Under the pieces are notes generated by a model that saw nothing but the letters and a program-made list of their open reading frames with translations, was not told where the DNA came from and did no database searches. A stretch of DNA of 64,000 bases, taken from positions 8,062,001-8,126,000 of the forward strand of contig OZ076409.1 of the NCBI GenBank assembly GCA_964187785.1. Direction: 5' to 3'. The DNA comes from Amphiscolops sp. MND2022. Taxonomy: Eukaryota. How positions within the stretch are numbered: position 1 is the first letter of the stretch; every line of letters begins with the position of its first letter. The translations under genes were made by a program, and so were the position numbers. This document shows positions 20,701 through 59,700 of this stretch, in pieces.

Positions 20701-23700
20701 CGTCGGTGGTTATGAAATTATCTTTCTTTGGGTCGAAGTGTGCTAGACATGGTGTTTCGGTTATTTCCGTTTTTAGTTGTTCAAAATCATCGTTTATTTC
20801 TTTTGTCCATTCCCATTTTACATCTTTCTTGAGTAGTTTTCTCATTCTATCGGTCTTTTTAGACAAGTTGTTCAAAAATTTTGATAAATGTTGTATTGAG
20901 CCCAGAAATGATTTTAGCTCTTTTGTGTTTGTGGGGGCTTTTAATTTTGTTATAGCCTCGGTTTTATCTTTAATTGGCTTTACCCCTTCTTGGTTTATCA
21001 AGTACCCCAACCAGGTTAGCTCTTTTTTGAACAGTTCTGTTTTTTTTTCACTCGCTCGGTAACCGGCTTCTTGCAATTTTGTTAGAACTTCGCGTAGTTC
21101 TCGATCGTGTTCTTCTATCGTTCCGTTTGTGACGCAAATGATGTCATCTAACCATACCGGCGTTTTAAATTCTAGGACCTTGTCTATATGTTCTTGAAAT
21201 TCCGTTGGTATGTCTGATAGGCCGTAGAATCCCTTCTTGAACAGGTAGTGTCCCGTGAAATCGCCGCCAATAATGGAGAACACACAATGTCTTGATGCTT
21301 CTGCGGATAGTTTGGCCTGTCCGTATGCATAATCTAAATCAACCTTGGACATCCAAATTTCGCCGTTATTTTGTGTAATTTTTGCAGAAATTTGACTGAT
21401 TAGTTCCTCCATGTTTGGCATTGTTGCTTTTCTTTTTATGCAAGATTCGTTTAGTTTCCGGGAGTCTAGTGCAATTTTTACTGATTTGTCTTTTTTGATT
21501 GTTATAACGGCTGGTGAGACAAAGCAGTTTTCGGTTGTTTTTATCAGCTTTTTCCAAATGTCTTTTTTCGATTAAGTTCTCTAATTCTTTTTTCACAATT
21601 TTTTGAAAGTGTATTGGTACTGGTCTCCCCTTTTGTTGTATCGGTTTTGCGTCTTTTTTCAATTGAATGTCTATGGTTAAGTTTTTTATGGTGTGATTGT
21701 TTTTAAAAAGGTTCTCGAAATCTTTAAAATTTTTCTCACCTTGTTCGTTTGTGGTTATGCTTCTGATGATGTTTGTTTCGCGGCTTCCTTGCAAACCGAT
21801 TTCCAATTTATCTAGCCAATCCAATCCTAGCAGGGGTTGTGTATTCTTTTTCTCGGTTATTAGGATTGGCAACATCACTTTTGTTTTCTCTGTTTTGACC
21901 TCAACTATTGCCTCGCCTTTGAATTCTATCGGGTTTTTGTTTACGTCCACGAAACACTTTGAAGTCGCTTTGATTTGTTTTGGAGTGATAATTGGTGGGA
22001 TAATCGTTACTGGATAGCCGGTGTCAATTATGAATTCAATTGGTTGTCCGTCCACCAATAGGATGGCTTTGTAGAAGTCTACTCGATTTATGCTGTTGAC
22101 GGACTGAATGTGGTCAATTTCTGGCCATGATTCCGTGTTGCTACCGGTATCTTCCTCTTGTATCCGGTTTACGGTTCTTGATCGGCAAACCTTTGCAAAG
22201 TGACCGGACTTTTTACAATTGTTGCATTTCGCCTTCCATGCTGGGCAGATGTGCTCGCGTGTCCAGTTGGATTTTCCGCAGAAGTGGCAATTTCGCTCCG
22301 TGTTTTTCTTTTTAGCCATGAACGTGGCCTTCTTCTTCGTTGCGGGTTTTGTGTATCCGACCTGTTCCTCGTCTGATGTGCTTTCGGATGGATTTTTTCG
22401 CTGTCTCTTGGAGGTTGTTTGTTTGTCTCCATATTTACGGTTATAGTTGTCCAGCTCAATGGTCTCCAATATCAGTGATAGCTTCAGTGGGCCTTTGATG
22501 AATTTGTCTCGGGCCTTTTTATCGTTTATGGTTGCTGCAAATTTGTATGTAATGATGTCTTCGGGTGTGATGGTGTTAAATTCGCACTTTCTTTCAATGT
22601 CTACCAGCCTCTTCCAGTACTCGTCTAGGGTTTCGCCATCTTCTTGCTTGATCTTAAAGAATTGGGCCCGGCTGTGGAATACATTCCTGGTTGATAGGAA
22701 GGTCTTTTTGAATAGTTTCAACAACTCTTGGAGACTAATATCTTTAAGTTCCTTTCCCCATTGACCTCTCATAATTTCGTGCTTTGCTTTTGGGCCCAAT
22801 GCCCATAAAACGTCACCTTTGATATGGTAGGTTGTATGAGGGTCCATAGAGTCCGTCCCTTGTTCCATCAACTCGTCCAGTTTCTTTTGGTATGTCAAAT
22901 CTATGTATTCGGATATTTGTTCCCACCACATTTTGGGATTGGCTTTTGATAGGTCAGTTTCTCTATCCGATAAGATCGGGATCTTGTACTTGTTTCTTTC
23001 AGTCCTTTCGACTGTTGTTTGGTTGACCGCCATTGGGTCGGTTTCGTTGTTGTTGCTCGGGTTTTCCATCGGTTTTCTTTTCTTGTTCGTACTTCTATGA
23101 CTGCGCCATGTTTTTGACTCGATAAAAGGTTTAAAGTAGGATGCTCAAGTTAAGAAAGTGTAAGTATTGTAACATACAAAGTGTAGCTGTCTTCAACGTA
23201 AAGTTAGCATCAACTGAATATAGTCTAGAGAGTACTGTAAGTTCATTGGCAGGTACCTAGTTACTGTTGTCTAGACTATTCTCTCTTCACACTATACCAG
23301 TCGCGTTTCACTTCATGAAGCGCCGACTAAAAATGATACGTTCTCGACCTTAAAGGAAAACTGTTCGATGGATCGGGATACATTGTTCCAAGGAAAAAGA
23401 TTTTTATGAGTGGTGTCAAAAAAGAATTTTTAAGTTGTGGGAATTCAGGACGTGGCATTTCCAAAAACCTGCTCATTAGGAGTTAGACTGCCGCGTTATG
23501 TTGGAGGCACTCCTGTTGCAGCTATGCCACCTTTTCTGTTGGGTAATAAATGCACAATATTTTCTAGAATTTTTTTCCACAATTTTGCTGTGATCAAAAT
23601 TCTCGAAAATGTGTTTATTTTCACTAACTTTGATTTTTGTTGACTTTTTTAAATAGAGATAACAGCTTCAGGGTAAAGGGTGTGATAATAAACTACTCTG

Positions 23701-38700: not shown

Positions 38701-41700
38701 CTTGAGGTGTGCATTGAACCAAAATCAAAAGAGATGCATTTGAATATTCAATTGCTAGTTAAAAAGACACCGGCCACTAATGAGTGAAAATATCATTTTG
38801 ATTTCGCCTCAGAAGACTTTTTGTGAGAAAGATGATAAACACTAATCCGGAGATACGAAAACAAAATGTGCGGATAACAAAGAGAAGAAAACAAATCGGA
38901 GTGGATGGTTCACGTAGTCATCCAATGGGACTGATTGCTCATTTGGCTGCCTTGTTATTCCGGAGATAGAAACCCGGGTCGACCCTCCATGGATATCTTA
39001 GTAAGATCGTGACAAGATATTGCCAAGAATTGCAAGATGTCATGGTACGATCTTATCAAGAGAGCCATTTTTCCAAGAAAACTTTTATTGTAAAATCCTA
39101 TTTGGAAAGAAAAAAATCTGAAAGGAAGTCAACAAAAATCAACATTTCTGCAGATTTAGTGCAATGACCGCCGTTTCTAGCAGTAATAAGGCTGCTGAAA
39201 CAGGCTCGAAGAAAGCTGGAAATATGATTTTACAAAAACTTCCGGAATTTAAGGTCTTTGCTTTGTAACTTTCCGACAGTGGGTCTGGACGTTTGAGAGC
39301 ATTTTTCTCCGTCTCTGGAATCGACAGGAGGGATAAATTACAAGTTTTGGAAAACCCTTGAAAAGAACGTTCATTTGGTACATTCGCATTTCTCAGTCTT
39401 AAACAGGTGAGGACTTATCAGGATTCTCGTCAAGTTTTCGGAAGCCAGAATACGTTATCGTAATTTTTCACGCCTTTTTTCATGCAAAATTTTTTCAGCA
39501 GGTTTAAGCATTTTGATTATGAAAACGAGTAGAAATAGTCGTTGTTGGGTGAAATGAGCCTTTAGATTGAGTCTCGGCTGTTTGTACCGAAGGACTAGTG
39601 ATTTCTTTTTTAATTCTTAAAATTTTGTCCATCGTGATAAGATACGATCTTGGAATAAGTATTATCTTGGTAAGATCTTAATAAGCATCTTGCCATGGGA
39701 TCCATGGCTGCCAAGATGTATTAAGAATTTGGCAAGATCTTGCCAAGACAGCCAAGATGCTTTCCCCCGGTCAACCCGAGAAGAAAGAAGCAATCATCTA
39801 AAAAAATTCGAAAATAACGAGCAAAAAAGACTCATTTTCAAAAGTATTCCTCACTTTTGGCCCACATTTGCTCAATTTTTTTAAAGTTATGTTCAATTGA
39901 CCCCCTGAACTTACCAAAGTCCTTGATATGTTTTGATTTCGGAATCATTCTAAAACCTTTGGAAAAATAAGCTGTAAAATTAGGCTTTTCCGAAACAAAA
40001 TGAACAAGGATACGACTCTGAAATCTTAACTTAAACCAATCTCATTCTGATACCATTTCCTTTATTTTCGAGAAAGGATTATTTTGTCAAATTCAAAATG
40101 TTCGGGAGAATTTTCTCTTTCTAATCACTCTCAAAAAGTGAAACTCGGGTCAAAGTGAGATGCAGAGGTCAAACTGCCAATCTCCATCAAAACTACTACA
40201 AACAGAGAGTTGTACAGTCTGATTGTAAAGAACCTTTTAGTAAAATTCTGTCCAATTTGTGTTATGTGACTTTGTATACCATTGATGATATGAACCTACA
40301 CTAGAAAACAGTTGAACTGAAGATCTACATACACTAATGTTTTAACCTTAGATAAGCGAAATTAACATGGCGCAGTAAGCAAGATCCACATCCTTTTTAC
40401 AGTGTACAAAACCTTTTACCGACAAACTAACCACCGATGATTGCCACAACAAACATAAGATTACCGTTTTTGGAAGACACCGGGCTGGACGGGAAAAAAC
40501 TACATACACCCAAGGAATGAACTGAAAGATTTCGGCATTATATAAAATGAATCCACAATGTCGTTATCAAAATACATTAGTAGATGATACGACACCAACC
40601 GGCGACCCCCGGGATACCGAAGAACAGGAGATGAGACAAGATTTCATTGGGGGCACTGGACCATCAGCAATTGAAATAATCACCGAAAGATAATTTAACA
40701 CCGACCCAGATACCATCAAAACCGATAAACTGATACAGTTTTTCCGGGAATACTGCATGCCAAAAAGAAACACCTATCACAGTCGTGAATGTTTCTTCTG
40801 GGCAGAACAAGAAGACGATTAGACATCCTAAGAAAAAGAACTGCGACTTCAAAGACAAAAAACAACAGGATTTACTTATATCAAAATTCATTACCTGCTC
40901 CACCGACAAAAAATTCCGGGAAAACTAATCCGTGAAAAACCATATACCTGAAAACAACCGTAGAATTCATTACCCGGGACAAAAGACGACAGAAACAACC
41001 TACCATACCACCCGCATAAGCAAAAAAAAACAGCGATAAAGCAAGAACCGATCTAAACGGTTCAAGCAAGACAACACCGAGAATAACGGAAAACACAACG
41101 GTGAATTCTGCGGACAACAAAACTGGACGCCCCAACATGACTGTACGGCGAAAGTTTGCAATGTAACAACTGCCAGAAATTAAAACACTTTGCACGGATG
41201 TGCCGCGGAAAACCAAACAATACTACAAAAAGAATAAATTATGTGGACAAAATGACTTCGGAGAAAGATTATGAAGAAAGCGAACCCGAACAACTAGGCT
41301 GGATAACACAAATAAAGAAAATGTTGCCGGACAACAGCGACAAAATCCGTATCGAAATGAAACTGAACAAATAACTTAACCAATGACACCGGCTCTGTGT
41401 TTACCATTATGCCAAACCATCCACGACTATGGCCGACGAATAACATCCAACCGATGAAGGAAAGATACCATGATGTGAACTAAAACAAAATCGAATTCCT
41501 CGGAAAGTTATGGGTGAAAGCAGAATACAACAACACAAAACCGAAACTGTCACTACAAATTACGAAGTGAGACGATATAACACTCCTCCTGGAGAAAATT
41601 GGCTAAAACAACTACCAATCACTAGCAACGAAATATAACTCGACAAAGAAACCAACCAATCAGAAACAATCCACACAAAACTCAGAAAGTTTTTCGAAAC

Positions 41701-44700
41701 AAATCACATTATCAAAAGTGCTAAGTGTAAACAAATAAAACCGGAACGTTACCCAATATAACAAAAAGCGCGACCAATGTCATATCGCTTACAAGACGAC
41801 GTAAAAAACGAACTGGTTCGACTAATAAAATCCGGACATCTAGAAAGATTAGAAACAGTCGAAAAAAAACTGGTTCGTATCCCCCGCAGTAATTACATTG
41901 AAACAAAAAATTGGTCAGAATCGCACAAGATGCACGAACATTGAACGATTGTAACTGAACGGTATAAAAGCGACCACACATGCCCAAAATGGACGAAATA
42001 CTTAGCCAAATTTCATCCGAAACCGATCTGTCAAAAAACGACTCAGACCCGATTTGGATATCAGTGATAGACTTCGACTACGCTCACAAACAGATTCAAC
42101 TAGCACCGGAAACCAGCAAACACTGCAATTTTGCAATCACGGGAGAAACAATTACCAGATACTACCGCTTTCTAAAAAGATTGTAGGAAGCAGATGTCAT
42201 ACCGACCATCTTCTGAGGGAAAACAGACTAATAACTCGGCCACCAAACACCAATATGGTTATATGAAATTATAGTTGTAACAGGTGGAACAAAGGAACAA
42301 CACACCAAAAAACTAGAATCAGACCTAACAAAACTGGAAAACGAAGCAAACAGAGCCAGCAAAACGAAATCAAAATTCTAACAGAAGGAAACAGCATGGC
42401 TGAGCCACACGTTTTCACGTAGTTAAATCAAATCGACTAGAGAAAAGACGGAGGCCATCAACAATTTGAACCCACAAACAAGCACCAAAACATTGAAGTC
42501 TTTTCTCGCAGTAATACAATACTTTGCAAAATTCTTACCAAGTCTATCAGAAAAGACGAACAATATGAGACAAATCTTAACCAACGGAACGAATTGGAAA
42601 TGGACGGAAGAACGAAGTACAGATTTCAACTGATTAAAAGGACATTTCACGACGCAATTGTGTTTAGCACTTTACAACAAAAACAAAGAAAACATTGTCG
42701 CAACAGATGCCTGCAATACCGGCCTCGTGATGGCATTATGGCAAAACAGAATAACAACGAACTACAACCCATCGCTTTCACCAGCCGCGACCTGAACGAC
42801 TTCGAAAAGAAAATCTCCGTTTCTGAGTTAGAACTATTAGCCATAGTTTGGGGCCTCGAGTGTTTCAGATTCCACCTATACAGTAAATAAGTCCAATTAT
42901 TATCAGGCCGCCAAGCAGAACCATTATTAAAGAAAAAAAACGAAACAAACAAACAGTACAGCGCCCGGTTAACCTGATGGTTGGAAACACTAAACCACTT
43001 CAATATAACTTTGAAATATACAGCGAGCAAAGAATTCAATTTTGCTGATTTTATCAGCCCAAATCCAACAGTAAATGAGGAACCGGAAGAAAATTACAAT
43101 GAAGAATTCGTCATCAACACCATCGCGCAACTTGCAACGGTAAAAGACCGTATTTGACGGATCTTCAACCAATCAGAAAGCAAAAACATAGGCGCAACTG
43201 TCATTGCGCGACGGCTCCGAGCAGACGACCTCTTTGAGAGAGCTCAGGAGTAATGGGTTCTACGAAAGTGCGCCCAAGCACCCCAATTGAATGGGGTACA
43301 TCAAAATATTTTCGCAAAAAAAACAGATTTTTGTCGCAAAAAATCCATAACTTTTCCGATTTTTATTCGCCATTTTCTCAACGACCAATGATCATAGGAT
43401 AATGAAACTTTCATGAGATTAAAGAAGACATCCTCCTCTTGCGTCGGTCGTTGCTAATTATGAGCCGGTCCGATGTCGTTTAATTAGAAAAAATGAGCAA
43501 AATGTACATTTAGAAAATTTTTCCGGAAAACCGAAAAATGTTACGATTTTTATTCGCCATTTTCTCAACGACCAATGATCGTAGGATAATGAAACTTTCA
43601 TGAGGTTAGAGAAGACATCCTCTTGCGTCGGTCGGAGCTAATTATGAGCTGGTTCGGTGTCGTTTAAGTAGTAAAATTGAGCCGAATCTACATTTACAAA
43701 ATTTTTTCGCTAAAAACCCAAAAACTTTTCCAATTTACATTCGCTATTTTCTCAACGACCAATGATCGTAGGATAATGAAATTTTCATGAGCTTAGAGAA
43801 GACATTCTGTTGCGTCAGTCGGTACTAATTATCAGCCGGTTCGATTTGTTTAAGTAGTAAAATTGAGCAAAATCTACACTTAGAAAATTTTTTCGAAAAA
43901 AAACCCAAAAAATTCCCGATTTTTATTCGCCATTTTCTCAACGCCCAATAATTGTAAAAGAATGAAACTTGCACAACCTTAAAGAAGACATCCTCGTGCG
44001 TCAGCTGGTACTTATTTTGAGACGGTTCGATATGGTTCATGTGGAAAAATTGCGCAAAATCGGAAAAAACCCTAAAAATTTTCGCAAAAACCATGTTTTC
44101 GAAGCTAATATAATCGCCCAGGCGGAAAATTTTCGGAACCTTCTTACATGGCCAGAATGGGCATTCACTTGCGGATCTTTTTTGAAATTTTGAATTGTCT
44201 CGGAGAAATAGGCTTGAAGAAAAATAGCCGAAACTTCTACAAATGCAGAGGGATGTCACGTTTTGGCGAAAAAAAAACATAGGGGATCAAACATAAAAAA
44301 CAGTCAAAAATAGCGTTTTTTCAAAACTTCTTTTGAAAAAAAACCATGAAGCCGAATTTTTTTTTCGAATTTTTTTTCGACGAAAATGTAGCCCAGGAAC
44401 CTGCGCAACTTTTAGCGGAAACATGGTGTCCGTATCTGTTATGGGTTTTGAGAAATTTGCCGCACAAGTTTGAAAAGTTGGCACATGTAACGAAATCTGC
44501 GAAAAAAAACATAGGCGCGACGGCATGTCGCGCTTGGGCACGAGCAGAAACGTTCAATGGTCTGCAGAAGGTGCTAGAAAATGTGTATATCCCAGATTCC
44601 AAAACCTAGTGAACTTATCTAGTCTCAGATCAAGAAAATTTAGATGAAAGAACTAAAAAGAAAGGTGAGAAATTGAAGTTTGAGAAAAATGAAAATTGTA

Positions 44701-47700
44701 ATTTTAGCAGAAAAACGTAGTCGTCATACTTGATGACGTAAACTTTGATAGTACAAGAACTAGCCTACATCTTTGCATAACTCTGTGAGGGAGAATGGAG
44801 AATGGTTTTGTATCTACTTTCCCTTCTGAGAAAAATCAGTTACAATTTGGGAAAAAATGAAAACTTTTCGAATTTTTTCTTCATCCATTCATTTGCCCAA
44901 TAATACCAGAGCGAGAAAAAGTCGACGTCATTTTTACCTTTACACATAGCCTACAGAACCCTTGTACAAATTACGAAACCATGGACTCCGTATTCGTTCT
45001 CGGTCCTGATATACAGGATACAGATATACAAGCTCGAGTAAAAAAGAACTGCGAATTTTTTTCAAAAAAATCAAGTATTTTTAGCAGAAAAACGAAGGCG
45101 TCATACTTGATGACGAAAACTTGATTAGTACAAAAAAGCCCACATCCTTGCTATTTGTCTTGAGGAAGAATCGTTTCTGTATCTTTCGTCAGTGTTGAGA
45201 AATATGAGCTACAAATGAGAAAACATTTTCCGACATTTTTTTTCATCCATTTTTTTGCCCAAAAAACCAAGTCTGAAAAAAATTTTGACGCCAATTTTAA
45301 GCGAAAATGTAGCCTATGAAACGCTTGTAAATTACACGAAACCATGGACCCTGTATTTGGTCCTGGTTCTGAGAAATAGGGGATCAAACATAAAAAAAAC
45401 AGTCAAAAATAGCGTTTTTTCAAAACTTCTATCTAAAAAAACCATGAAGCCGAATTTTTTTCGAATTTTTTTTCGACGAAAATGTAGCCCAGGAACCTGC
45501 GCAACTTTTGGCTAAGACAAAGGTTTTTCGTATCTCTTTTCAGTTCTGAGGAAAATCAGTTACAAATTATGAAAAAATGTGAAATTTTTAAAATTTCTTC
45601 TTCATCCCTTTATTTGCCCAAAAAACCGGAGCAAAAAAAATTCGACGTCATTATTGGTTTCAAACGCAGCCTACTGAGCCCTAGTACAAATTACGAAAAC
45701 ATGGACTGCGTATTTGTTCTCGGTCTTGAGATATAGGGGCTTAAGTATAAAATAAATAGGAAAATTTTTCAAAAAAAAAACAAGTATTTTTAGCAGAAAA
45801 ACGAACGCGTCATACGTGATGACGGAAACTTTGTTGGTGCAAAACCTAGCTAACATCCTTGCTGTTTATCTTGAGGGAGAATGGTTTCTGTATCTTTCGT
45901 CAGGTTTGAGAAATATGAGCTACAAATGAGAACAAAAATTTTCGACATTTTTTTTCATCCATTTTTTTGCCCAAAAAACCAAGTCTGAAAAACATTTTGA
46001 CGCCAAGTTTGAGCGAAAATGTAGCCTACGAAACGCTTGTAAATTACACGAAACCATGGACCCTGTATTTGGTCCTGGTTCTGAGAAATAGGGGATCAAA
46101 CATAAAAAACAGTCAAAAATAGCGTTTTTTCAAAACTTCTTTTGAAAAAAAACCATGAAGCCGAATTTTTTTTTCGAATTTTTTTTCGACGAAAATGTAG
46201 CCCAGGAACCTGCGCAACTTTTAGCGGAAACATGGTGTCCGTATCTGTTATGGGTTTTGAGAAATTTGCCGCACAAGTTTGAAAAGTTGGCACATGTAAC
46301 GAAATCTGCGAAAAAAAACATAGGCGCGACGGCATGTCGCGCTTGGGCACGAGCAGAAACGTTCAATGGTCTGCAGAAGGTGCTAGAAAATGTGTATATC
46401 CCAGATTCCAAAACCTAGTGAACTTATCTAGTCTCAGATCAAGAAAATTTAGATGAAAGAACTAAAAAGAAAGGTGAGAAATTGAGTTTGAGAAAAATGA
46501 AAATTGTAATTTTAGCAGAAAAACGTAGGCGTCACACTTGATAACGGAAACTTTGATAGTACAAGAACTAGCCTACATCTTTGCATAACTCTGTGAGGGA
46601 GAATGGTTTTCGTATCTACTTTCACTTCTGGGAAAAGTCAGTTACAATTTGGGAAAAAATGGAAGTTTTTCGAATTTTTTCTTCATCCATTTATTTGCCC
46701 AATAATACCAGAGCGAAAAAAAGTCGACGTCATTTTTACCTCTACACATAGCCTACTGAACCCTCGTACAAATTACGAAACCATGGACTCCGTATTCGTT
46801 CTCGGTCCTGATATACAGGATACAGATATACAAGCTCGAGTAAAAAAGAACTGAGAAATTTTCTCAAAAAAAACAAGTTTTTTAGCAGAAAAACGAAGGC
46901 GTCATACTTGATGACGAAAACTTGATTAGTACAAAAAAGCCCACATCCTTGCTATTTGTCTTGAGGAAGAATGGTTTCTGTATCTTTCGTTAGTGTTGAG
47001 AAATATGAGCTACAAATGAGAAAAAATTTTTCGACATTTTTTTCATCCATTTTTTTGCCTAAAAAATCAAGTCTGAAGAAAATTTTGACGCGAATTTTGA
47101 GCGAAAATGTAGCCTTTGAAACGCTTGTAAATTACACGAAACCATGGACCCTGTATTTGGTCCTGGTTCTGAGAAATAGGGGATCAAACATAAAAAAACA
47201 GTCAAAAATAGCGTTTTTTCAAAACTTCTTTTTAAAAAAACCATGAAGCCGAATTTTTTTCGAATTTTTTTTTCGACGAAAATGTAGCCCAGGAACCTGC
47301 GCAACTTTTGGCTATGACAAAGGTTTTTCGTATCTCCTTTCAGTTCTGAGGAAAATCAGTTGAAAATTATGAAAAAATGTGAAATTTTTCAAATTTCTTC
47401 TTCATCCCTTTATTTGCCCAAAAAAACCGGAGCAAAAAAATTCGACGTCATTATTGGTTTTAAACGCAGCCTACTGAGCCCTAGTACAAATTACGAAACG
47501 ATGGACTGCGTATTTGTTCTCGGTCTTGAGATATAGGGGCTCAAGTATAAAATAAATAGGAAAATTTTTCAAAAAAAACAAGTATTTTTAGCAGAAAAAC
47601 GAACGCGTCATACGTGATGACGGAAACTTTGTTGGTACAAAACCTAGCTTACATCCTTGCTGTTTATCTTGAGGGAGAATGGTTTCTGTATCTTTCGTCA

Positions 47701-50700
47701 GTTTTGAGAAATATGAGCTACAAATAAGAAAAAAACTTTTGACATTTTTTTTCATCCAGTTTTTTGCCCAAAAAACCAAGTGTGAAAAAAATTTTGACGC
47801 CAATTTTGAACGAAAATGTAGCCTACGAAACGCTTGTAAATTACACGAAACCATGGACCCTGTATTTGGTCCTGGTTCTGAGAAATAGGGGATCAAACAT
47901 AAAAAAAACAGTCAAAAATAGCGTTTTTTCAAAACTTCTTTTTAAAAAAACCATGAAGCCGATTTTTTTTCGAATTTTTTTTCGACGAAAATGTAGCCCA
48001 GGAACCTGCGCAACTTTTGGCTATGACAAAGGTTTTTCGTATCTCCTTTCAGTTCTGAGGAAAATCAGTTACAAATTATGAAAAAATGTGAAATTTTTCA
48101 AATTTCTTCTTCATCCCTTTATTTGCCCAAAAAAACCGGAGCAAAAAAACTTCGACGTCATTATTGGTTTTAAACGCAGCCTACTGAGCCCTAGTACAAA
48201 TTACGAAACCATGGACTGCGTATTTGTTCTCGGTCTTGAGATATAGGGGCTTAAGTATAAAATAAATAGGAAATATTTTCAAAAAAAAACAAGTATTTTT
48301 AGCAGAAAAACGAACGCGTCATACGTGATGACGGAAACTTTGTTGGTGCAAAACCTAGCTTACATCCTTGCTGTTTATCTTGAGGGAGAATGGTTTCTGT
48401 ATCTTTCGTCAGGTTTGAGAAATATGAGCTACAAATGAGAAAAAATTTTTCGACATTTTTTTTCATCCATTTTTTTGCCCAAAAAACCAAGTCTGAAAAA
48501 CATTTTGACGCCAAGTTTGAGCGAAAATGTAGCCTACGAAACGCTTGTAAATTACACGAAACCATGGACCCTGTATTTGGTCCTGGTTCTGAGAAATAGG
48601 GGATCAAACATAAAAAACAGTCAAAAATAGCGTTTTTTTCAAAACTTCTTTTAAAAAAACATGAAGCCGATTTTTTTTCGAATTTTTTTTTCGACGAAAA
48701 TGTAGCCCAGGAACCTGCGCAACTTCTAGCGGAAACATGGTGTCCGTATCTGTTATGGGCTTTGAGACATTTGCCGCACAAGTTTGAAAAGTTGGCACAT
48801 GTCACGAAATCTGCGAAAAAAAAACATAGGCGCGACGGCATGTCGCGCTTGGGCACGAGCAGAAACGTTCAATGGTCTGCAGAAGGTGCTAGAAAATGTG
48901 TATATCCCAGATTCCAAAACCTAGTGAACTTATCTAGTCTCAGATCAAGAAAATTTAGATGAAAGAACTAAAAAGAAAGGTGAGAAATTGAGTTTGAGAA
49001 AAATGAAAATTGTAATTTTAGCAGAAAAACGTAGGCGTCATACTTGATAACGGAAACTTTGATAGTACAAGAACTAGCCTACATCTTTGCATAACTCTGT
49101 GAGGGAGAATGGTTTTCGTATCTACTTTCACTTCTGAGAAAAATCAGTTACAATTTGGGAAAAAATGGAAGTTTTTCGAATTTTTTCTTCATCCATTTAT
49201 TTGCCCAATAATACCAGAGCGAAAAAAAAGTCGACGTCATTTTTACCTTTACACATAGCCTACTGAACCCTCGTACAAATTACGAAACCATGGACTCCGT
49301 ATTCGTTCTCGGTCCTGATATACAGGATACAGATATACAAGCTCGAGTAAAAAAGAACTGAGAAATTTTTTCAAAAAAAAACAAGTATTTTTAGCAGAAA
49401 AACGAAGGCGTCATACTTGATGACGAAAACTTGATTAGTACAAAAAAGCCCACATCCTTGCTCTTTGTCTTGAGGAAGAATGGTTTCTGTATCTTTCGTC
49501 AGTGTTGAGAAATATGAGCTACAAATGAGAAAAAATTTTTCGACATTTTTTTAAATCCATTATTTTGCCCAAAAAACCAAGTCTGAAAAAAATTTTGACG
49601 CCAATTTTGAGCGAAAATGTAGCCTATGAAACGCTTGTAAATTACACGAAACCATGGACCCTGTATTTGGTCCTGGTTCTGAGAAATAGGGGATCAAACA
49701 TAAAAAAAAAACAGTCAAAAATAGCGTTTTTTCAAATCTTCTTTTTAAAAAAACCATGAAGCCGAATTTTTTTCGAATTTTTTTTCAACGAAAATGTAGC
49801 CCAGGAACCTGCGCAACTTTTGGCTATGACAAAGGTTTTTCGTATCTCCTTTCAGTTCTGAGGAAAATCAGTTAAAAATTATGAAAAAATGTGAAATTTT
49901 TCAAATTTCTTTTTCATCCCTTTATTTGCCCAAAAAAACCGGAGCAAAAAAAATTCGACGTCATTATTGGTTTTAAACGCAGCCTACTGAGCCCTAGTAC
50001 AAATTACGAAACCATGGACTGCGTATTTGTTCTCGGTCTTGAGATATAGGGGCTTAAGTATAAAATAAATAGGAAAATTTTTCAAAAAAAAACAAGTATT
50101 TTTAGCAGAAAAACGAACGCGTCATACGTGATGACGGAAACTTTGTTGGTGCAAAACCTAGCTTACATCCTTGCTGTTTATCTTGAGGGAGAATGGTTTC
50201 TGTATCTTTCGTCAGGTTTGAGAAATATGAGCTACAAATGAGAAAAAATTTTTCGACATTTTTTTTCATCCATTTTTTTTGCCCAAAAAACCAAGTCTGA
50301 AAAACATTTTGACGCCAAGTTTGAGAGAAAATGTAGCCTACGAAACGCTTGTAAATTACACGAAACCATTTACCCTGTATTTGGTCCTGGTTCTGAGAAA
50401 TAGGGGATCAAACATAAAAAACAGTCAAAAATAGCGTTTTTTCAAAACTTCTTTTAAAAAAAACCATGAAGCCGAATTTTTTTCGAATTTTTTTTTCGAC
50501 GAAAATGTAGCCCAGGAACCTGCGCAACTTTTAGCGGAAACATGGTGTCCGTATCTGTTATGGGTTTTGAGAAATTTGCCGCACAAGTTTGAAAAGTTGG
50601 CACATGTCACGAAATCTGCGAAAAACAACATAGGCGCGACGGCATGTCGCGCTTGGGCACGAGCAGAAACGTTCAATGGTCTGCAGAAGGTGCTAGAAAA

Positions 50701-53700
50701 TGTGTATATCCCAGATTCCAAAACCTAGTGAACTTATCTAGTTTCAGATCAAGAAAATTTAGATGAAAGAACTAAAAAGAAAGGTGAGAAATTGAGTTTG
50801 AGAAAAATGAAAATTGTAACTTTAGCAGAAAAACGTAGGCGTCATACTTGATAACGGAAACTTTGATAGTACAAGAACTAGCCTACATCTTTGCATAACT
50901 CTGTGAGGGAGAATGGTTTTCGTATCTACTTTCACTTCTGGGAAAAATCAGTTACAATTTGGGAAAAAATGGAAGTTTTTCGAATTTTTCTTCATCCATT
51001 TATTTGCCCAATAATACCAGAGCGAAAAAAAGTCGACGTCATTTTTACCTTTACACATAGCCTACTGAACCCTCGTACAAATTACGAAACCATGGACTCC
51101 GTATTCGTTCTCGGTCCTGATATACAGGATACAGATATACAAGCTCGAGTAAAAAAGAACTGAGAAATTTTTTCAAAAAAAACAAGTATTTTTAGCAGAA
51201 AAACGAAGGCGTCATACTTGATGACGAAAACTTGATTAGTACAAAAAAGCCCACATCCTTGCTATTTGTCTTGAGGAAGAATGGTTTCTGTATCTTTCGT
51301 CAGTGTTGAGAAATATGAGCTACAAATGAGAAAAAATTTTTCGACATTTTTTTTCATCCATTTTTTTGCCCAAAAAACCAAGTCTGAAAAAAATTTTGAT
51401 GCCAATTTTGAGCGAAAATGTAGCCTATGAAACGCTTGTAAATTACACGAAACCATGGACCCTGTATTTGGTCCTGGTTCTGAGAAATAGGGGATCAAAC
51501 ATAAAAAAAAAACAGTCAAAAATAGCGTTTTTTCAAAACTTCTTTTTAAAAAAACCATGAAGCCGAATTTTTTTCGAATTTTTTTTCAACGAAAATGTAG
51601 CCCAGGAACCTGCGCAACTTTTGGCTATGACAAAGGTTTTTCGTATCTCCTTTCAGTTCTGAGGAAAATCAGTTAAAAATTATGAAAAAATGTGAAATTT
51701 TTCAAATTTCTTCTTCATCCCTTTATTTGCCCAAAAAAACCGGAGCAAAAAAAATTCGACGTCATTATTGGTTTTAAACGCAGCCTACTGAGCCCTAGTA
51801 CAAATTACGAAACCATGGACTGCGTATTTGTTCTCGGTCTTGAGATATAGGGGCTTAAGTATAAAATAAATAGGAAAATTTTTCAAAAAAAAACAAGTAT
51901 TTTTAGCAGAAAAACGAACGCGTCATACGTGATGACGGAAACTTTGTTGGTGCAAAACCTAGCTTACATCCTTGCTGTTTATCTTGAGGGAGAATGGTTT
52001 CTGTATCTTTCGTCAGGTTTGAGAAATATGAGCTACAAATGAGAAAAAATTTTTCGACATTTTTTTTCATCCATTTTTTTTGCCCAAAAAACCAAGTCTG
52101 AAAAACATTTTGACGCCAAGTTTGAGCGAAAATGTAGCCTACGAAACGCTTGTAAATTACACGAAACCATGGACCCTGTATTTGGTCCTGGTTCTGAGAA
52201 ATAGGGGATCAAACATAAAAAACAGTCAAAAATAGCGTTTTTTCAAAACTTCTTTTAAAAAAAACCATGAAGCCGAATTTTTTTCGAATTTTTTTTTCGA
52301 CGAAAATGTAGCCCAGGAACCTGCGCAACTTTTAGCGGAAACATGGTGTCCGTATCTCTTATGGGTTTTGAGAAATTTGCCGCACAAGTTTGAAAAGTTG
52401 GCACATGTCACGAAATCTGCGAAAAACAACATAGGCGCGACGGCATGTCGCGCTTGGGCACGAGCAGAAACGTTCAATGGTCTGCAGAAGGTGCTAGAAA
52501 ATGTGTATATCCCAGATTCCAAAACCTAGTGAACTTATCTAGTTTCAGATCAAGAAAATTTAGATGAAAGAACTAAAAAGAAAGGTGAGAAATTGAGTTT
52601 GAGAAAAATGAAAATTGTAACTTTAGCAGAAAAACGTAGGCGTCATACTTGATAACGGAAACTTTGATAGTACAAGAACTAGCCTACATCTTTGCATAAC
52701 TCTGTGAGGGAGAATGGTTTTCGTATCTACTTTCACTTCTGGGAAAAATCAGTTACAATTTGGGAAAAAATGGAAGTTTTTCGAATTTTTCTTCATCCAT
52801 TTATTTGCCCAATAATACCAGAGCGAAAAAAAGTCGACGTCATTTTTACCTTTACACATAGCCTACTGAACCCTCGTACATATTACGAAACCATGGACTC
52901 CGTATTCGTTCTCGGTCCTGATATACAGGATACAGATATACAAGCTCGAGTAAAAAAGAACTGAGAAATTTTTTCAAAAAAAACAAGTATTTTTAGCAGA
53001 AAAACGAAGGCGTCATACTTGATGACGAAAACTTGATTAGTACAAAAAAGCCCACATCCTTGCTATTTGTCTTGAGGAAGAATGGTTTCTGTATCTTTCG
53101 TCAGTGTTGAGAAATATGAGCTACAAATGAGAAAAAATTTTTCGACATTTTTTTTCATCCATTTTTTTGCCCAAAAAACCAAGTCTGAAAAAAATTTTGA
53201 TGCCAATTTTGAGCGAAAATGTAGCCTATGAAACGCTTGTAAATTACACGAAACCATGGACCCTGTATTTGGTCCTGGTTCTGAGAAATAGGGGATCAAA
53301 CATAAAAAAAACAGTCAAAAATAGCGTTTTCTCAAAACTTCTTCTTAAAAAAACCATGAAGCCGAATTTTTTTTCGATTTTTTTTTCGACGAAAATTTAG
53401 CCCAGGAACCTGCGCAACTTTTAGCGGAAACATGGTGTCCGTATCTGTTATGGGTTTTGAGAAATTTGCCGCACAAGTTTGAAAAGTTGGCACATGTCAC
53501 GAAATCTGCGAAAAAAAAACATAGGCGCGACGGCATGTCGCGCTTGGGCACGAGCAGAAACGTTCAATGGTCTGCAGAAGGTGCTAGAAAATGTGTATAT
53601 ACCAGATTCCAAAACCTAGTGAACTTATCTAGTCTCAGATCAAGAAAATTTAGATGAAAGAACTAAAACGAAAGGTGAGAAATTGAAGTTTGAGAAAAAT

Positions 53701-56700
53701 GAAAACTGTAATTTTAGCAGAAAAACGTAGGCGTCATACTTGATGACGGAAACTTTGATATTACAAGAACTATCCCACATCTTTGCATAACTCTGTGAGG
53801 GAGAATGGTTTTCGTATCTACTTTCACTTCTGAGAAAAATCAGTTAGAAGTTGGGAAAAAATGGAAATTTTTCGAATTTTTTCTTCATCCATTCTGTTGC
53901 CCAATATTACCAGAGCGAAAAAAAGTCGACGTCATTTTTACCTTTACACATAGCCTACTGAACCCTCGTACAAATTACGAAACCATGGACTCCGTATTCG
54001 TTCTCGGTCCTGATATACAGGATACAGATATACAAGCTCGAGTAAAAAAGATTGAGAAATTTTTTCAAAAAAATCAAGTATTTTTAGCAGAAAAACGAAG
54101 GCGTCATCTTTGATGACGAAAACTTGATTAGTACAAAAAAAGCCCACATCCTTGCTATTTGTCTTGAGGAAGAATGGTTTCTGTATCTTTCGTCAGTGTT
54201 GAGAAATATGAGCTACAAGTGAGAAAAAAAATTTTCGAAATTTTTTCATTCCTCTTTTTTTGCCCAAAAAGCGCAGTCGGAAAAAAGGTTGACGTCATTT
54301 TTTAGCAAAAATGTAGCCTACAAAACGCTTGTATATTATACGAAACCATGGACCCTGTATCTGGTCTCGGTTTTGAGAAATAAGGGAAGAAAATGAAACA
54401 CTCTAAAAATTTGCGTTTTTTCAAAACTTTTTTCAAAAAAAAACAGGAAGCCGAATTCTTTTTGGAAATTTTTTTCAACAAAAAGGTAGCCAAGGCTTCT
54501 ACCCAACTTTTGGCTAGGACAAAGGTTTTTCGTATCTCTTTTCAGTTCTGAGGAAAATCAGTTACAAATTATGAAAAAATGGGAAATTTTTCAAATTTCT
54601 TCTTCATCCCTTTATTTGCCCAAAAAAACCGGAGCAAAAAAAATTCGACGTCATTAGTGGATTTAAACGCAGCCTACTGAGCCCTAGTACAAATTACGAA
54701 ACCATGGACTGCGTATTTGTTCTCGGTCTTGAGATATTGGGGCTCAAGTATAAAATAAATAGGAAAATTTTTCAAAAAAAAACAAGTATTTTTAGCAATA
54801 AAACGAACGCGTCATACGTGATGACGGAAACTTTGTTGGTACAAAACCTAGCTTACATCCTTGCTGTTTATCTTGAGGGAGAATGGTTTCTGTATCTTTC
54901 GTCAGTTTTGAGAAATATGAGCTACAAACAAGAAAAAAATTTTTGACATTTTTTTTCATCCAGTTTTTTGCCCAAAAAACCAAGTCTGAAAAAAATTTTG
55001 ACGCCAATTTTGAGCGAAAATGTAGCCTATGAAACGCTTGTAAATTACACGAAACCATGGACCCTGTATTTGATCCTGGTTCTGAGAAATAGGGGTTCAA
55101 ACATAAAAAATAGTCAAAAATACCGTTTTTTCAAAACTTCTTTTTAAAAAAAACCATGAAGCCGAATTTTTTTCGAAATTTTTTTTCGACGAAAATGTAG
55201 CCCAGGAACCTGCGCAACTTTTAGCGGAACCATGGTGTCCGTATCTGTTATGGGTTTTGAGAAATTTGCCACAAGTTTGAAAAGTTGGCACATGTCACGA
55301 AATCTGCGAAAAAAAAACGTCACCATATGGGCAATCTCGCTCCGCTCGTGCCCCAAAAAAACGTCACCATATGGGCATCTCGCTCCGCTCGTGCTCCAAA
55401 AACTAAACGCAAACAATAAGGCCCCTCGCTTCGCTCGTCGCCTTAAAAAAACAGACAAGACGGCAAACATACATAATAAGCACGCGCTACTGCAAAACAA
55501 ACGATGACCAATCTCATTCAAATTCGACCGCTAATCCGAATACCATTGGAACGCCACGCCGCAGTACTATTTCTCAAATCAAAAGCAATGACAAAAAACA
55601 ATAATCAACAAAATACGGCTAGATACACACGTGAATCTACTTTGAGGTACCACTGGTGCGCAAACGACGAGATAGTGAAAATCATCAACAGACTGACAAC
55701 TTCACGCAAAAACCAGAGAGCTCGAACGAAGAAAATTTGAACTGACGAGACCGGCACACATCGCCACCAATGGCACAAGAAACTAGATAGGAAGAGCCTG
55801 CTCCCCAAAGCACCAGGTGACGCTGACCGAAAAGAGACAAAAAGAATTGATATCCAACTACGATGGAAGGAAAAATGCCGCGATACACACCTCGGAGGCG
55901 GTTACTCCAAAACTTTTGGCGACGAAATCCCACCGCGAACAGCACCAACCACCGAAGCAAATCTGGTCACAATAACAGTTCAAAAATCATCAGTAGACAT
56001 CGAATCTACGGTATCATTATTACCAGAAGAGTCTATTATCACGCAAGAACATACCCAGCCTCCCCCCGTACAAGAGTATCGCGACGGACCGATCGAAGAA
56101 ATTGCCGTCCACTACGTACAGAAAAACCGGATGATAGAGAAGAAATCAACCCAAAACCGACAGCAAGAAAACAACATCCGATCCGCTGACCTGGATTTCA
56201 TGTTCAATTTGAAACCCTGATTAAAGAAACGGCAGTGGATCCAGATCTAAGTAAAACTACAATGCTGTCTAAAGACAACAAAATGCAGGAGATTCAAGAA
56301 GACTATAAGCAAGTGGCAAAGAGACATCGCTTTGGTATAACCATGGTAGACGACCGAATTATCGTTCCAAAAGTCTACGATATTCTGCATTAAACCCCCT
56401 ACACTTTGACTATCCGGGTAGCGACAAGATATGCAGCGGTGGAGTAATCTTCTGAAGGCCGAACATGCGGTCGGAAATAAAGAAAAAGGCAAAAACCTAC
56501 TTCGCCTGACTAAATACCGTTGAGACTTTAAAACCACCAATTTCCAGTACCAAAAATTCAAAAACCGAACTGCCAAAAAAACCCTGGAAATTAATTCATA
56601 TTGATATCACAGAAAATTTGAATAGTAAATATCTAAACACTTTCCCTTCTATTAGTCGCCGTAGATTAAAAAGCCGCTGGCAGGTGTCAAAAAGTTGCAA

Positions 56701-59700
56701 AAACACCAATCACCACACGGTGATAACATTTCTACTGGAATACATAAATGGTGTACCGAAATTAATTAACGTTGATGAAGGAGGTGCTTTTATCTCCAAG
56801 TAGGAAAACGAAAATAAAAAGAGCTCGCTCGGTAGTAAATTCGTTATTGAACAGCAAACCGCAATCTTTGGATCTAAACACACCGTAACTACCGACAAAA
56901 ACGAAACTATACACAGGAAATCAATTTCTAAATCAAAAGCGTTCCAGAGTACAGCCTCGTCAACAAACGAATCAGCACAAGGACGGTGACGATAGCTGAT
57001 AGACCGTCAAGATCAAAACGGCTGAACCAACGGCAGTGTGCGAATACAGAAGGAACGTGCCACCGCGCCCAGAAAACATGGACAATAGCGCGGATTGGAT
57101 AAAAAGGAAAGAACAACCCAGACACGAGATGGGCCAATTCACAAGCCCTGATGAGTCGACAGGAAAGCCCATAGACCTCGATCTCAGTATGGTTTCCGAG
57201 AACGAAAATTTTCACTGTTATAGTACAAGCGAAGGAAAGCCAGTCAACACAAACATCGAGGACGAGCTACAACTATCGCCGATAGAAACATTATTGACCC
57301 CGGAGACATGTATAAACATTGACCAGAGCTGCATATGCGGTAAAGGAGTCGGCTTAGGTTTTTTTCTTCTGACTCGCCCCAATCCCAGTCATACCAATTC
57401 ATTGGAATTGCACACATAGGACCATACTAAGGTGTAGAAAATGACTGTAAAAAATTTCCTTCGAATCGTATGAACAGTTTCAGCAAAAGTCAAAAAATTC
57501 GAAAAATGGCTATTTTTTTACCATTTTTGGGGTAATTTAGGCTATGTTTCTCACATCCCAGCAGTACGAAATTGCTGAAACTACACACAAAGCACCATAA
57601 CATGATGTAGATTGACTGTACAAAATTTCATTCGAATCTTATGGACAGTTTTTGAGAAAGTGGAAAAAAAACAAAAAATGAATGTTTTTCGGCCATTTTT
57701 GGTCTAATTTTGTCTATGTTTCTCACATCCCAGCCATACGATTTTGATGCCATTGCACGTATAAGACTCTAATATGGTGTAGAATAACTGTAGAAAATTT
57801 CATTCGAATCGTATCGGACAGTTTTTGGAAAAATCGAAAAAAATGAAAAACCGCTGTTTTTTGGCCCTTTTTGGGCTAATTTTGGCTATGTTTCTCACAT
57901 CCCAGCCATATGATTTTGCTGCCATTGCACATATAGGACTCTAATATGGTGTAGAATAACTGTAGAAAATTTCATTTGAATCGTATGGACAGTTTCTCAG
58001 AAAATAGAAAAAAAATGAGTGTTTTTCGGCCATTTTTGGGCTAATTTTGGCTATGTTTCTCACATCCCAGCCATACGACTTTGATGCCTTTGCGGACGCA
58101 GGGGCCCTTTTGGGTGTAGAATGACTCTGCAACATTTCGTGAAAATCGTATGGACAGCTTTTGAGAAAATTGAAATTTTCACGAAAAGGTCGGGAGAAAA
58201 AAAAAACAAAAAAAACAGCACGATTGCATAAGTAGTCGAAAATTTTTCCCACTCCTAAAAAACACCTATTGAACACCACCAAACGGTGAGAAGATCGCAA
58301 AGACTACCATATGCTAAACAAACTAAGAAAATAGGCGGTGTACCACACCATACCGATAATAATATAAAGAAAATGAATATTTGTTGTGCTTTACAGGAAC
58401 GCCAGAACAACCAGCCCTGGACAAACAGCAGTGAAGAACCGATGAACCGTATTATATTGACAAAACTGGAAAAACTTCAAACTAACCGCGAAATATGGCA
58501 TCACAGCACTCAACAACCCCATACAACCGATTCTATCCGGAGGGGGAATGTGAGATACAGAGGTCAAGCTGCCAATCTCCTTCAAAACTACTACACACAG
58601 AGAGTTGCTTAGTCAGATTGTAAGCAAAGTCTAATAAGAATTCTATCCAATTTATGTTATGTGACTTTATATACCATTGATGATATGAAACTACGCTAGA
58701 ATACAGTTGAGTTGAACATCTACATACAGTATTGTTTTAACCTTAGATTAGCGATATTAACAGGTAAAAAATCGAAAAACTAAAAATTGATGTTCTCGAA
58801 AAATTTTTTGACCAATAAAATGAACGCGTTAGATCTCAATTAGCCAATGAGAGTTGCGTATTTTATCTTTTTACACAATCTTTTTACGTGTTGTTCTTTT
58901 AAGTTCACTACTTCAGATAGTGCTGTAGAGCAAATATAGCTCAGTCAACACAAAAAAAACATAATGACTTAGTACTCAGAGTAAAAGACTGGACGGTCAT
59001 CAAATAGACTTCACGATGCAGTTCCCATCACAATTTGTGCATTAGTTTGTTCAATATATGCAATGATTCTACCGATGGGCTGTCGGTTGCCACTGCAAAG
59101 CCGCAGATGGAACCTCAATGGCCACTGGTGTGACTTGGATGAATCATAAGCGACCACCGGTGGTCTGCGATTGGTTGCCAACTCGGGTGTCAATCTGTCA
59201 TCAACCTGACTGAGACTCTACTCGTAGATATTTCAGCCCTGATTGTTGAAAGAAAAATCCTGGCTAGCGGTGATTTTTCAGTGAGTTTTGGCGATGACTA
59301 ATTTGAAATATTTGCAGCCATACTAACTTCTACATGTATCAGAGCATAATTGGAATCAATCATGTTTCAGTTTGACCGTCATTGGAACTACTTTTCAGAT
59401 CAAACCAATCATTCAACTCGGCGTAGGAAAAAGGAATGCACTTTTATGAATGACCAAGAAGTTTATCAAACCGGTAATTACGGGACAGGGGGAATTACAA
59501 GGGAACTATCTGACCCATACCTTTTGTATGGAAAAGAGCTTTGATTGAAGCTTCCTGGCCGTTGAAGAAAAGAGTTGCCATGTCATTAAACTCATTTTCG
59601 ACGCAGAAAAAGGAGCGCAAAGAGACTGTCTCGTTGTTATCCGTCTGGTAGTCGTTCTGAAACACAAAACTTTCAACTTTTTGCAATAGAATTCATGCCA

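What the first reader, a model, noticed from the sequence alone, without database searches (positions are those of the whole stretch)
43185..55446. Self-nesting rolling-circle (Helentron-type) element turning into a higher-order satellite
Seen: an outer element opens at 43185 (AACATAGG plus its own hairpin). A second opens at 44276 but jumps via ATAGG microhomology to a late internal position. Six more openings (AACATAGGCGCGACGGCATGTCGCGC) follow, each in the same A-run after GAAATCTGCG. Only three closing caps exist, stacked at 55318, 55362 and 55403; the first two carry GCTCGTGC subTIRs. The Gypsy frame on either side ([13 protein letters not shown]) rejoins without a TSD. Known: a 3' hairpin, subTIRs and TT-site insertion without TSD is HINE/DINE-1 architecture. 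Inference: the element inserted into its own subterminal T-run, creating a direct repeat that was then amplified. This would be a snapshot of satellite birth by self-targeting.
Basis: partly seen in the sequence, partly recalled or inferred. Interest (0 to 1): 0.8.

Follow-up and report, generated by a model that had tools for sequence, protein, structure and literature searches.

The report
Transposons stacking inside each other's ends
This 12-kb stretch is a stack of rolling-circle jumping elements (Helentron type): across the genome three related families sit, hundreds of times, in the short T-run just inside one another's starting end, likely because they are steered there, and here one nested copy was then likely duplicated into a small tandem array.

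Summary
In detail: 8 openings, 3 stacked caps, inside a decayed Ty3/Gypsy-type element. The elements read on the minus strand: 'caps' are 5' ends, hairpin 'openings' 3' ends. They are non-autonomous Helentrons (HINE/HLE2). Three families (A, B, C) each have RepHel-coding partners with the same ends; one A partner has an intact 2,047-aa ORF. The outer element is family A and the third cap is its own, so nesting crosses families. Genome-wide, at least 423 of 1,790 hairpin ends sit in the T-run just inside a resident cap and 138 directly beside a cap; two internal A-run controls give 0 and 0. Cross-family junctions are mostly distinct (39-43 of 47). The window array is two or three insertions plus local duplication (U2-U5 form one clade), matching the two B caps. 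'No TSD' is undecidable (5 extra A per insertion). 'Satellite birth' is overstated: the largest amplified run seen has about 15 units. Self-insertion near Helitron2 5' ends and dimer-to-satellite growth are already published; a single, cross-family landing site at this scale was not found in my searches. The scan had not noted this elsewhere.

The parts
43187..44277 (-). Family A non-autonomous Helentron, body: 3' hairpin end (43192-43209), imperfect 3' subTIR (43213-43222), four 187-bp repeats (43327-44061), landing T-run at its far end
   Evidence: solo A copies; autonomous partner
44278..44509 (-). U0: truncated B unit (end motif joined at ATAGG to a B tail), sitting in A's landing run; tail identical to U1's
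44510..46318 (-). U1: B unit (1,809 bp); likely the original B inserted into A
46319..53519 (-). U2-U5: four B units (2,506, 1,804, 1,801, 1,090 bp), 0.55-1.7% apart, one clade among 58 sampled B sequences; local duplicates. Internal periods about 170/350/710 bp
53520..55354 (-). U6: complete B element with its own 5' cap (55318-55354, subTIR GGGCACGAGC); 5.2-5.4% from U1-U4; independent innermost insertion
55362..55397 (-). 5' cap of the outer B element
55403..55444 (-). 5' cap of the outer A element
41141..43186 (+). Host, left part: decayed Ty3/Gypsy-type gag-pol (zinc knuckle weak, RT_RNaseH 42441-42887)
55452..57327 (+). Host, right part: continuation of the same decayed element; paralogues are contiguous across the site

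Best explanation
The stretch is a nested stack of non-autonomous Helentrons (an A copy holding B copies), likely built by RepHel-driven insertion that is steered to the T-run just inside a resident element's 5' cap, and then likely lengthened by local unequal exchange. Shown: the ends, the partner ORFs, the last-in-first-out order of caps, the concentration of insertions beside caps, the clade of duplicated units. Inferred history here: A inserted into a T-run of an old Gypsy-type element; B (U1 lineage) inserted into A's run; a second B (U6) inserted into that B's run, giving two direct repeats and two B caps; exchange in the identical first ~80 bp of the two B ends duplicated the outer B body, further exchanges gave U2-U5 and a deletion at ATAGG gave U0. 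A third insertion (U2-U5 separate from U1) with loss of one cap is not excluded. Inferred targeting: RepHel binds or nicks the resident 5' cap (hairpin, subTIR, GAGCG repeats), and the first T-run behind it, tethered or made single-stranded, takes the incoming copy; each insertion leaves cap plus five T intact, so the site is reusable and each new copy brings a new site.
For: Partners: an A hairpin end lies about 300 bp behind the stop of a 2,047-aa ORF (DUF6570, Helitron_like_N, PIF1; Exo_endo_phos weak, E 0.002, under cut-off) with Rep motif ECQWRGSLHGH, and A's repeats and cap lie upstream; C and B have broken or decayed partners with the same RGS motif. Targeting: 423 ends in landing runs (control 0) and 138 directly beside caps (control 1) of 1,790; 0 and 0 at two internal A-runs of B, although the first context occurs 11 times in this array against 7 landing runs and fits the solo-site preference (A5 then C 57%, then A 57%, 56 flanks). 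In the first 100 listed ends on contig C1 plus window, 88 were classified: 39 in A/B/C landing runs, 1 in a D tail, 6 after a cap, 42 'flank' (3 of these are in fact element tails or a cap). Cross-family cases alone are 8 of 88 (9%), against about 0.05% expected from about 3.3 million A5+C sites or 0.7% from about 0.26 million A8+C sites (estimated from 644 kb non-element DNA). 39-43 of 47 cross-family junctions are distinct; three unique RepHel-bearing copies themselves sit in landing runs. Fully balanced multi-family stacks exist (L163, L272-273, L289-288). No opposite-strand nested element was printed. Local duplication: U2-U5 clade, support 0.905 among 58 sequences, with shared rare alleles; U4/U5 share alleles absent from 52 outside copies; U0 and U1 tails identical.
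Against: One assembly, no reads (one search listed none); A-run lengths are prone to sequencing error. The 423 includes locally amplified junctions (15 in L139/L140, 6 here, of 39 in the sample). Composite units can spread as wholes, so distinct junctions overcount events by an unknown amount (4-8 of 47 cluster). Caps and openings often do not balance: among multi-element stacks of the C1 sample I read 7 balanced, 8 cap-poor, 3 cap-rich. U1 shares no rare allele with U2-U5 and its smallest clade with them holds 17 outside copies. The outer edge of a cap is also used (L266), and a fourth, unrelated-looking family D receives insertions in its A-tail (3 cases: L133, L138, L276), so long A-runs attract some insertions without a cap. 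The A subTIR matches at only 8 of 10 positions; cap hairpins fold no better than shuffles. No intact B partner was found. The binding/nicking step is untested.
Confidence: 0.72

Rival explanations
1. No active targeting: a few chance nestings formed composite elements that then spread by rolling-circle copying (start at an outer cap, stop at the first hairpin or read through it) and by local duplication, inflating the counts.
For: Cap-rich units (one opening with 9 caps in L172, 2 caps in L126) and cap-poor ones exist; this is the model of PMC5148889 Fig. 7; some junctions recur at distant loci (L155/L272, L283/L288).
Against: 39-43 of 47 cross-family junctions distinct, many host-length and family combinations; unique RepHel-bearing copies in landing runs; even few founders should sometimes have used the more numerous internal A-runs, yet 0 and 0.
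Confidence: 0.12
2. Plain sequence preference: the endonuclease likes long T-runs in this local context, and the landing run simply is a very good site, without any protein binding to the cap.
For: Solo sites are A-rich with A5+C; family D's A-tail also gets insertions; only two internal runs were tested genome-wide.
Against: Solo flanks show no motif beyond 2 bases; three landing runs with different flanking letters are all used; B holds 12 A7+C runs per 2.5 kb that are not used; genomic A8+C sites outnumber landing runs about 140 to 1.
Confidence: 0.1
3. The window array is a rolling-circle concatemer or a series of seven separate nested insertions whose caps were later lost, not a product of unequal exchange.
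For: Tandem 42-bp caps are easy to lose; concatemers are reported for plant Helitrons (Xiong et al., as summarised in PMC12628747); U3-U5 are only 10-13 changes per 880 bp from outside copies.
Against: A concatemer should carry cap-to-hairpin junctions or extra 5' ends; here 3' ends are in excess and units differ in length and by 0.55-2.6% in a graded way; U2-U5 are one clade with alleles absent elsewhere.
Confidence: 0.04
4. Assembly artefact inflating unit number.
For: No reads could be checked; U4 and U5 differ by 1 in 880 bases.
Against: Units differ by 6-97 substitutions and in length; comparable stacks occur on many contigs.
Confidence: 0.02

Closest known systems
HINE / DINE-1-like non-autonomous Helentrons (Thomas et al. 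2014, PMC4067079; passages seen); HLE2 of HELIANO (PMC11417382; passages)
   Same: subTIRs, 3' stem-loop, T-rich target with variable T count, central tandem repeats, partner RepHel with RGS motif, DUF6570 and C-terminal endonuclease-like domain
   Different: subTIRs here are 10 bp (B), 12 bp (C), 8 of 10 (A) against 12-15 bp; the passages seen report no landing site inside the elements' own ends
FoHeli Helitron2 elements of Fusarium with multiple 5' termini (Chellapan et al. 2016, PMC5148889; passages and section 10 seen)
   Same: Short duplicated 5' ends (31-85 nt) explained by proposed self-insertion near the 5' end and start at the outer 5' end; one FoHeli4 inserted 2 bp from another's 5' end
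   Different: There a hypothesis from few cases; here intact nested stacks, one fixed T-run, three families using each other's sites, at least 561 of 1,790 ends, with internal controls
Double insertion of TEs seeding satellites (McGurk and Barbash 2018, PMC5932611; passages)
   Same: Insertion at a reused site makes a direct repeat that unequal exchange can expand
   Different: The reused site is carried by the element itself, so every copy makes a new site; that paper has no mention of Helitrons (0 hits)
Cg_HINE of oyster and DINE-TR1 carrying or releasing satellite repeats (PMC7492417 passages; review PMC12628747 passages)
   Same: HINEs with internal 170-190-bp repeats dispersed through a genome
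   Different: There the internal repeat is the satellite; here the near-whole element body is the repeated unit
Nested maize Helitrons with multiple termini (PMC3288121; passages); Alu-into-Alu tail and MITE self-nesting (recalled, not checked)
   Same: Nesting followed by mobilisation from mixed ends
   Different: Canonical Helitron1 ends, mostly extra 3' ends, no fixed site shown in the passages seen

Membership tests
HINE (non-autonomous Helentron / HLE2) | Subterminal inverted repeats at both ends | tested here: met
   B GGGCACGAGC / GCTCGTGCCC (10 bp), C 12 bp, A 8 of 10; shorter than the 12-15 bp of PMC4067079 for A and B
HINE (non-autonomous Helentron / HLE2) | Stem-loop near the 3' end | tested here: met
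   7-bp stems in A, B, C with different inner pairs and loops; B z -2.55, A z -0.48; 3' position fixed by ORF direction
HINE (non-autonomous Helentron / HLE2) | Insertion into T-rich (TT) sites with T on both ends | tested here: met
   At least 2 A before all 73 solo openings; 5 or more A after 47 of 59 solo caps
HINE (non-autonomous Helentron / HLE2) | No target-site duplication | tested here: inconclusive
   Empty landing run mode A9 against A8-10 plus A5 when filled; host site 12 A against 7 bases in paralogues: net 3-5 extra A, not assignable
HINE (non-autonomous Helentron / HLE2) | Autonomous RepHel partner sharing the termini | tested here: met
   A: intact 2,047-aa ORF; C: broken ORF with 97-98% C ends; B: decayed, 81-92%
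Helentron (partner) | S in Rep motif 2 (RG-S) and DUF6570 | tested here: met
   RGSLHGH in L305, L301, L298, L295; RGL in the Helitron1-type L219; DUF6570 in L305, L301, L298; criteria
Helentron (partner) | C-terminal AP endonuclease domain | tested here: inconclusive
   Exo_endo_phos E 0.0022 and 0.0012, under the curated cut-off; no PDB match; many weak matches to LINE-sized ORFs
Canonical Helitron1 | 5' TC, 3' CTRR, insertion between A and T | tested here: not met
   3' end is hairpin-CTATG-T run, 5' end follows a T run
MITE / cut-and-paste TIR element | True terminal inverted repeats and fixed TSD | tested here: not met
   No minus-strand self-match in the region; ends asymmetric; partner is RepHel
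Satellite DNA / higher-order repeat | Long, high-copy homogenised tandem array | tested here: not met
   7 units here; about 15 in the largest amplified run fetched; only 1,790 ends in the whole assembly. Multi-level periods (170/350/710/1,800/4,310 bp) are present. Unassembled arrays not testable

The most novel reading that the evidence does not exclude
This Helentron group has an active, protein-guided landing-pad system: RepHel recognises the 5' cap of any resident copy of three families and integrates into the adjacent T-run, so the elements build their own reusable safe harbours and so mass-produce direct repeats that seed tandem arrays; the intact 2,047-aa element makes Helentron target choice directly testable.
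Probability: 0.5. Interest if true: 0.75.

Novelty: new variant of a known kind. Interest (0 to 1): 0.55.

Why it matters
How Helentrons choose targets, and what their endonuclease-like domain does, is untested (PMC4067079 calls for biochemistry). A third of all copies sitting beside one 40-65-bp cap gives a sharp, testable target rule, a likely explanation for the multiple 5' ends reported in fungi, and a route from dispersed transposon to tandem array in which each copy supplies the next site. It also matters for annotation: such stacks break end-pairing tools and look like satellites.

Tried and rejected
The look-up of sequencing runs listed no run: none was listed, so reads were not examined. 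A genome-wide cap count double-counts on one strand and misses family C, so it was not used for balance. PDB search of the endonuclease-like tail gave nothing. Seven long RepHel ORF classes fetched (L202-L209, L213-L220) do not carry these ends, so they are not partners. A long target motif shared by caps and solo sites was sought and not found. Mosaic U1/U6 origin of U2-U5 rejected: U6's private alleles are absent from them. MITE and Helitron1 rejected (membership tests). Counts of window-specific variant motifs and of control-site numbers over all fetched loci were not obtained; the control-site number rests on this window only. Depth of after-cap insertions (about 25 enclosed by an outer cap, 2 not, several unresolved) is my reading by eye, not a computed count. 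Literature: 8 searches answered; no paper seen describes a fixed cross-family landing run in Helentrons; subscription papers (Xiong 2016, Dias 2015, Thomas and Pritham 2015 review, Repbase entries) were not readable, and supplements of PMC5148889 (Table S6, Fig. S11-13) were not opened and may bear on novelty. Earlier scan notes: three look-ups gave one unrelated note.
Full report
Observation. The coordinates are right. Eight AACATAGG starts, six full B hairpin ends after GAAATCTGCG plus an A-run, and three caps at 55318, 55362 and 55403 are present. The window is G000:C1:8062001-8126000 of a 1.07-Gb assembly. The flanks are a decayed Ty3/Gypsy-type element (RT_RNaseH; many stops). Seven of 14 fetched paralogues have 7 bases where the filled site has 5+7 A, so the insertion added five A; whether these are element ends or a duplication cannot be told in a homopolymer.

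What the elements are. Searches with the B junction, the cap region and the A end returned 1,651, 1,777 and 561 first-look candidates. The loci show three families sharing the end CATAGGCGC plus a 7-bp hairpin but with different hairpin interiors, bodies, landing runs and caps. The third cap in the window is A's. On the minus strand each element reads T-run, cap with subTIR, T8-10 run, body with 170-190-bp-scale repeats, subTIR, hairpin, CTATG, T-run. That this is the sense strand is shown by the partner: at C5:69.43-69.44 Mb an A hairpin end lies about 300 bp behind the stop of a single 2,047-aa ORF with DUF6570, Helitron_like_N, PIF1 and a weak Exo_endo_phos match, Rep motif ECQWRGSLHGH, with A repeats and cap upstream. 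S at that position and DUF6570 are the published Helentron/HLE2 marks (PMC4067079; PMC11417382; passages seen). C has a broken partner with 97-98% identical ends, B decayed ones at 81-92%.

Targeting. Of 1,790 exact ends (control 109), 423 follow the shared ATGTCACG motif and A-run that lies just inside a cap (control 0) and 138 follow a cap directly (control 1). Two internal A-runs of B gave 0 and 0; the first occurs 11 times in this array against 7 landing runs and matches the weak solo-site preference. As an unselected sample I fetched every cluster among the first 100 listed ends (C1, 0-45 Mb; 50 regions) plus the window; 88 ends could be assigned to A, B or C: 39 in landing runs, 1 in a family D tail, 6 after caps, 42 in flanks, 3 of which proved to be element tails or a degenerate cap. 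Twenty-one of the 39 come from two amplified arrays. Cross-family cases cannot be local duplications: 8 of 88, at four loci, against 0.05-0.7% expected from A-run counts in 644 kb of non-element DNA. Over all parsed loci 47 cross-family junctions fall into 39-43 distinct groups, and three unique RepHel-bearing copies sit in landing runs. Several stacks close in exact last-in-first-out order across families (L163, L272-273, L289-288). Junction lengths are regular: empty B run mode A9 (17 of 29), filled A7-10 on one side, A5 between caps (19 of 23 for B-B), A3 or A5-6 from cap to a new end. Insertions after a cap are nearly always still enclosed by an outer cap (by eye about 25 against 2), so the rule is best put as 'the T-run directly behind a resident 5' cap', which each insertion leaves intact.

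Against a clean picture: caps and openings often do not balance (7 balanced, 8 cap-poor, 3 cap-rich among multi-element stacks in the sample, my reading); one copy has nine caps (L172); the A-tail of family D also takes insertions (3 cases); some junctions recur at distant loci, so composites do move. Start at an outer cap with stop at the first hairpin explains cap-rich copies; read-through of a hairpin (shown for the Helitron1 Helraiser, PMC4778049, passages), cap slippage or local duplication explain cap-poor ones. These are inferences.

The window array. U6 is 5.2-5.4% from U1-U4; U1 is 2.0-2.6% from U2-U5; U2-U5 are 0.55-1.7% apart and form a clade (support 0.905) among 58 B sequences, with alleles rare or absent outside. 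U0's tail equals U1's. The simplest history has two B insertions for two B caps, then repeated duplication of the outer B body; U1 shares no rare allele with U2-U5, so three insertions with one cap lost remain possible. Length differences come from gain or loss of the 710-bp internal dimer. Other amplified runs exist (about 15 units of 1.06 kb in L139/L140; A-head/B-tail units of 1.09 kb in L174), but nothing fetched reaches satellite size. No reads were listed.

Comparison with what is known. The elements are ordinary HINEs. Self-insertion near the 5' end as the source of multiple 5' termini was proposed for Fusarium Helitron2 elements (PMC5148889; passages and section 10); nested origins of multiple termini for maize Helitrons (PMC3288121, passages); double insertion then unequal exchange as a source of satellites for Drosophila TEs (PMC5932611, passages); HINE-borne satellites in oyster (PMC7492417, passages; review PMC12628747, passages); Helitron-derived subtelomeric arrays in Hydractinia (PMC11934779, passages). 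In eight searches I saw no report of one fixed, element-borne landing run shared across families and used by about a third of copies; closed-access papers, Repbase notes and the supplements of PMC5148889 were not seen.

Verdict. Real feature; known family; a quantified new variant of a proposed behaviour. Targeted nesting is well supported as a pattern (about 0.85), cap-guided RepHel integration is the likeliest cause (about 0.5-0.6), local amplification of this array is well supported, satellite birth is not shown. Interest 0.55.

Noticed in passing
window 57328-58215 and about 9060-9436: Two copies of a fourth repeat family (D) with 172-bp internal repeats and an A-rich tail after GGTCGGGAG; elsewhere A and C elements sit in that tail (L133, L138, L276).
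   Followed up: partly
G000:C1:73.4-76.5 Mb (L215, L216, L220): Sixteen Helitron_like_N matches, many in 2,350-2,390-aa open frames, all on the + strand within 3 Mb; a member of this size class elsewhere (L204) has a GIY-YIG match just under cut-off. Possibly another oriented, site-preferring RepHel family, perhaps centromeric.
   Followed up: no
L172 (C10:57,238,480-57,240,440): One B element with nine stacked caps and unique flanks.
   Followed up: partly
L173-L174 (C3:41.155-41.165 Mb); L286-L287 (C3:44.75-44.77 Mb): Tandem arrays of chimeric units (A head with B tail, 1.09 kb; B head ending in an A cap, 2 kb), made by deletion across a nested pair and then amplified.
   Followed up: partly
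L132, L152, L156 (C1): Further hairpin ends starting CATAGGCGC with other stems: likely more families of the same group.
   Followed up: no
G000:C1406: The same multi-family stack recurs three times at 45-kb spacing on an unplaced contig: a large tandem segment or an assembly duplicate.
   Followed up: no
window 18371-23144, minus strand: Long open frames of 592, 886 and 179 aa, probably a younger retroelement; not annotated.
   Followed up: no
L219 (C8:51.74 Mb) and related loci: Helitron1-type RepHel (RGL motif, 1,320-aa frame) coexists in several near-identical-scoring copies.
   Followed up: partly
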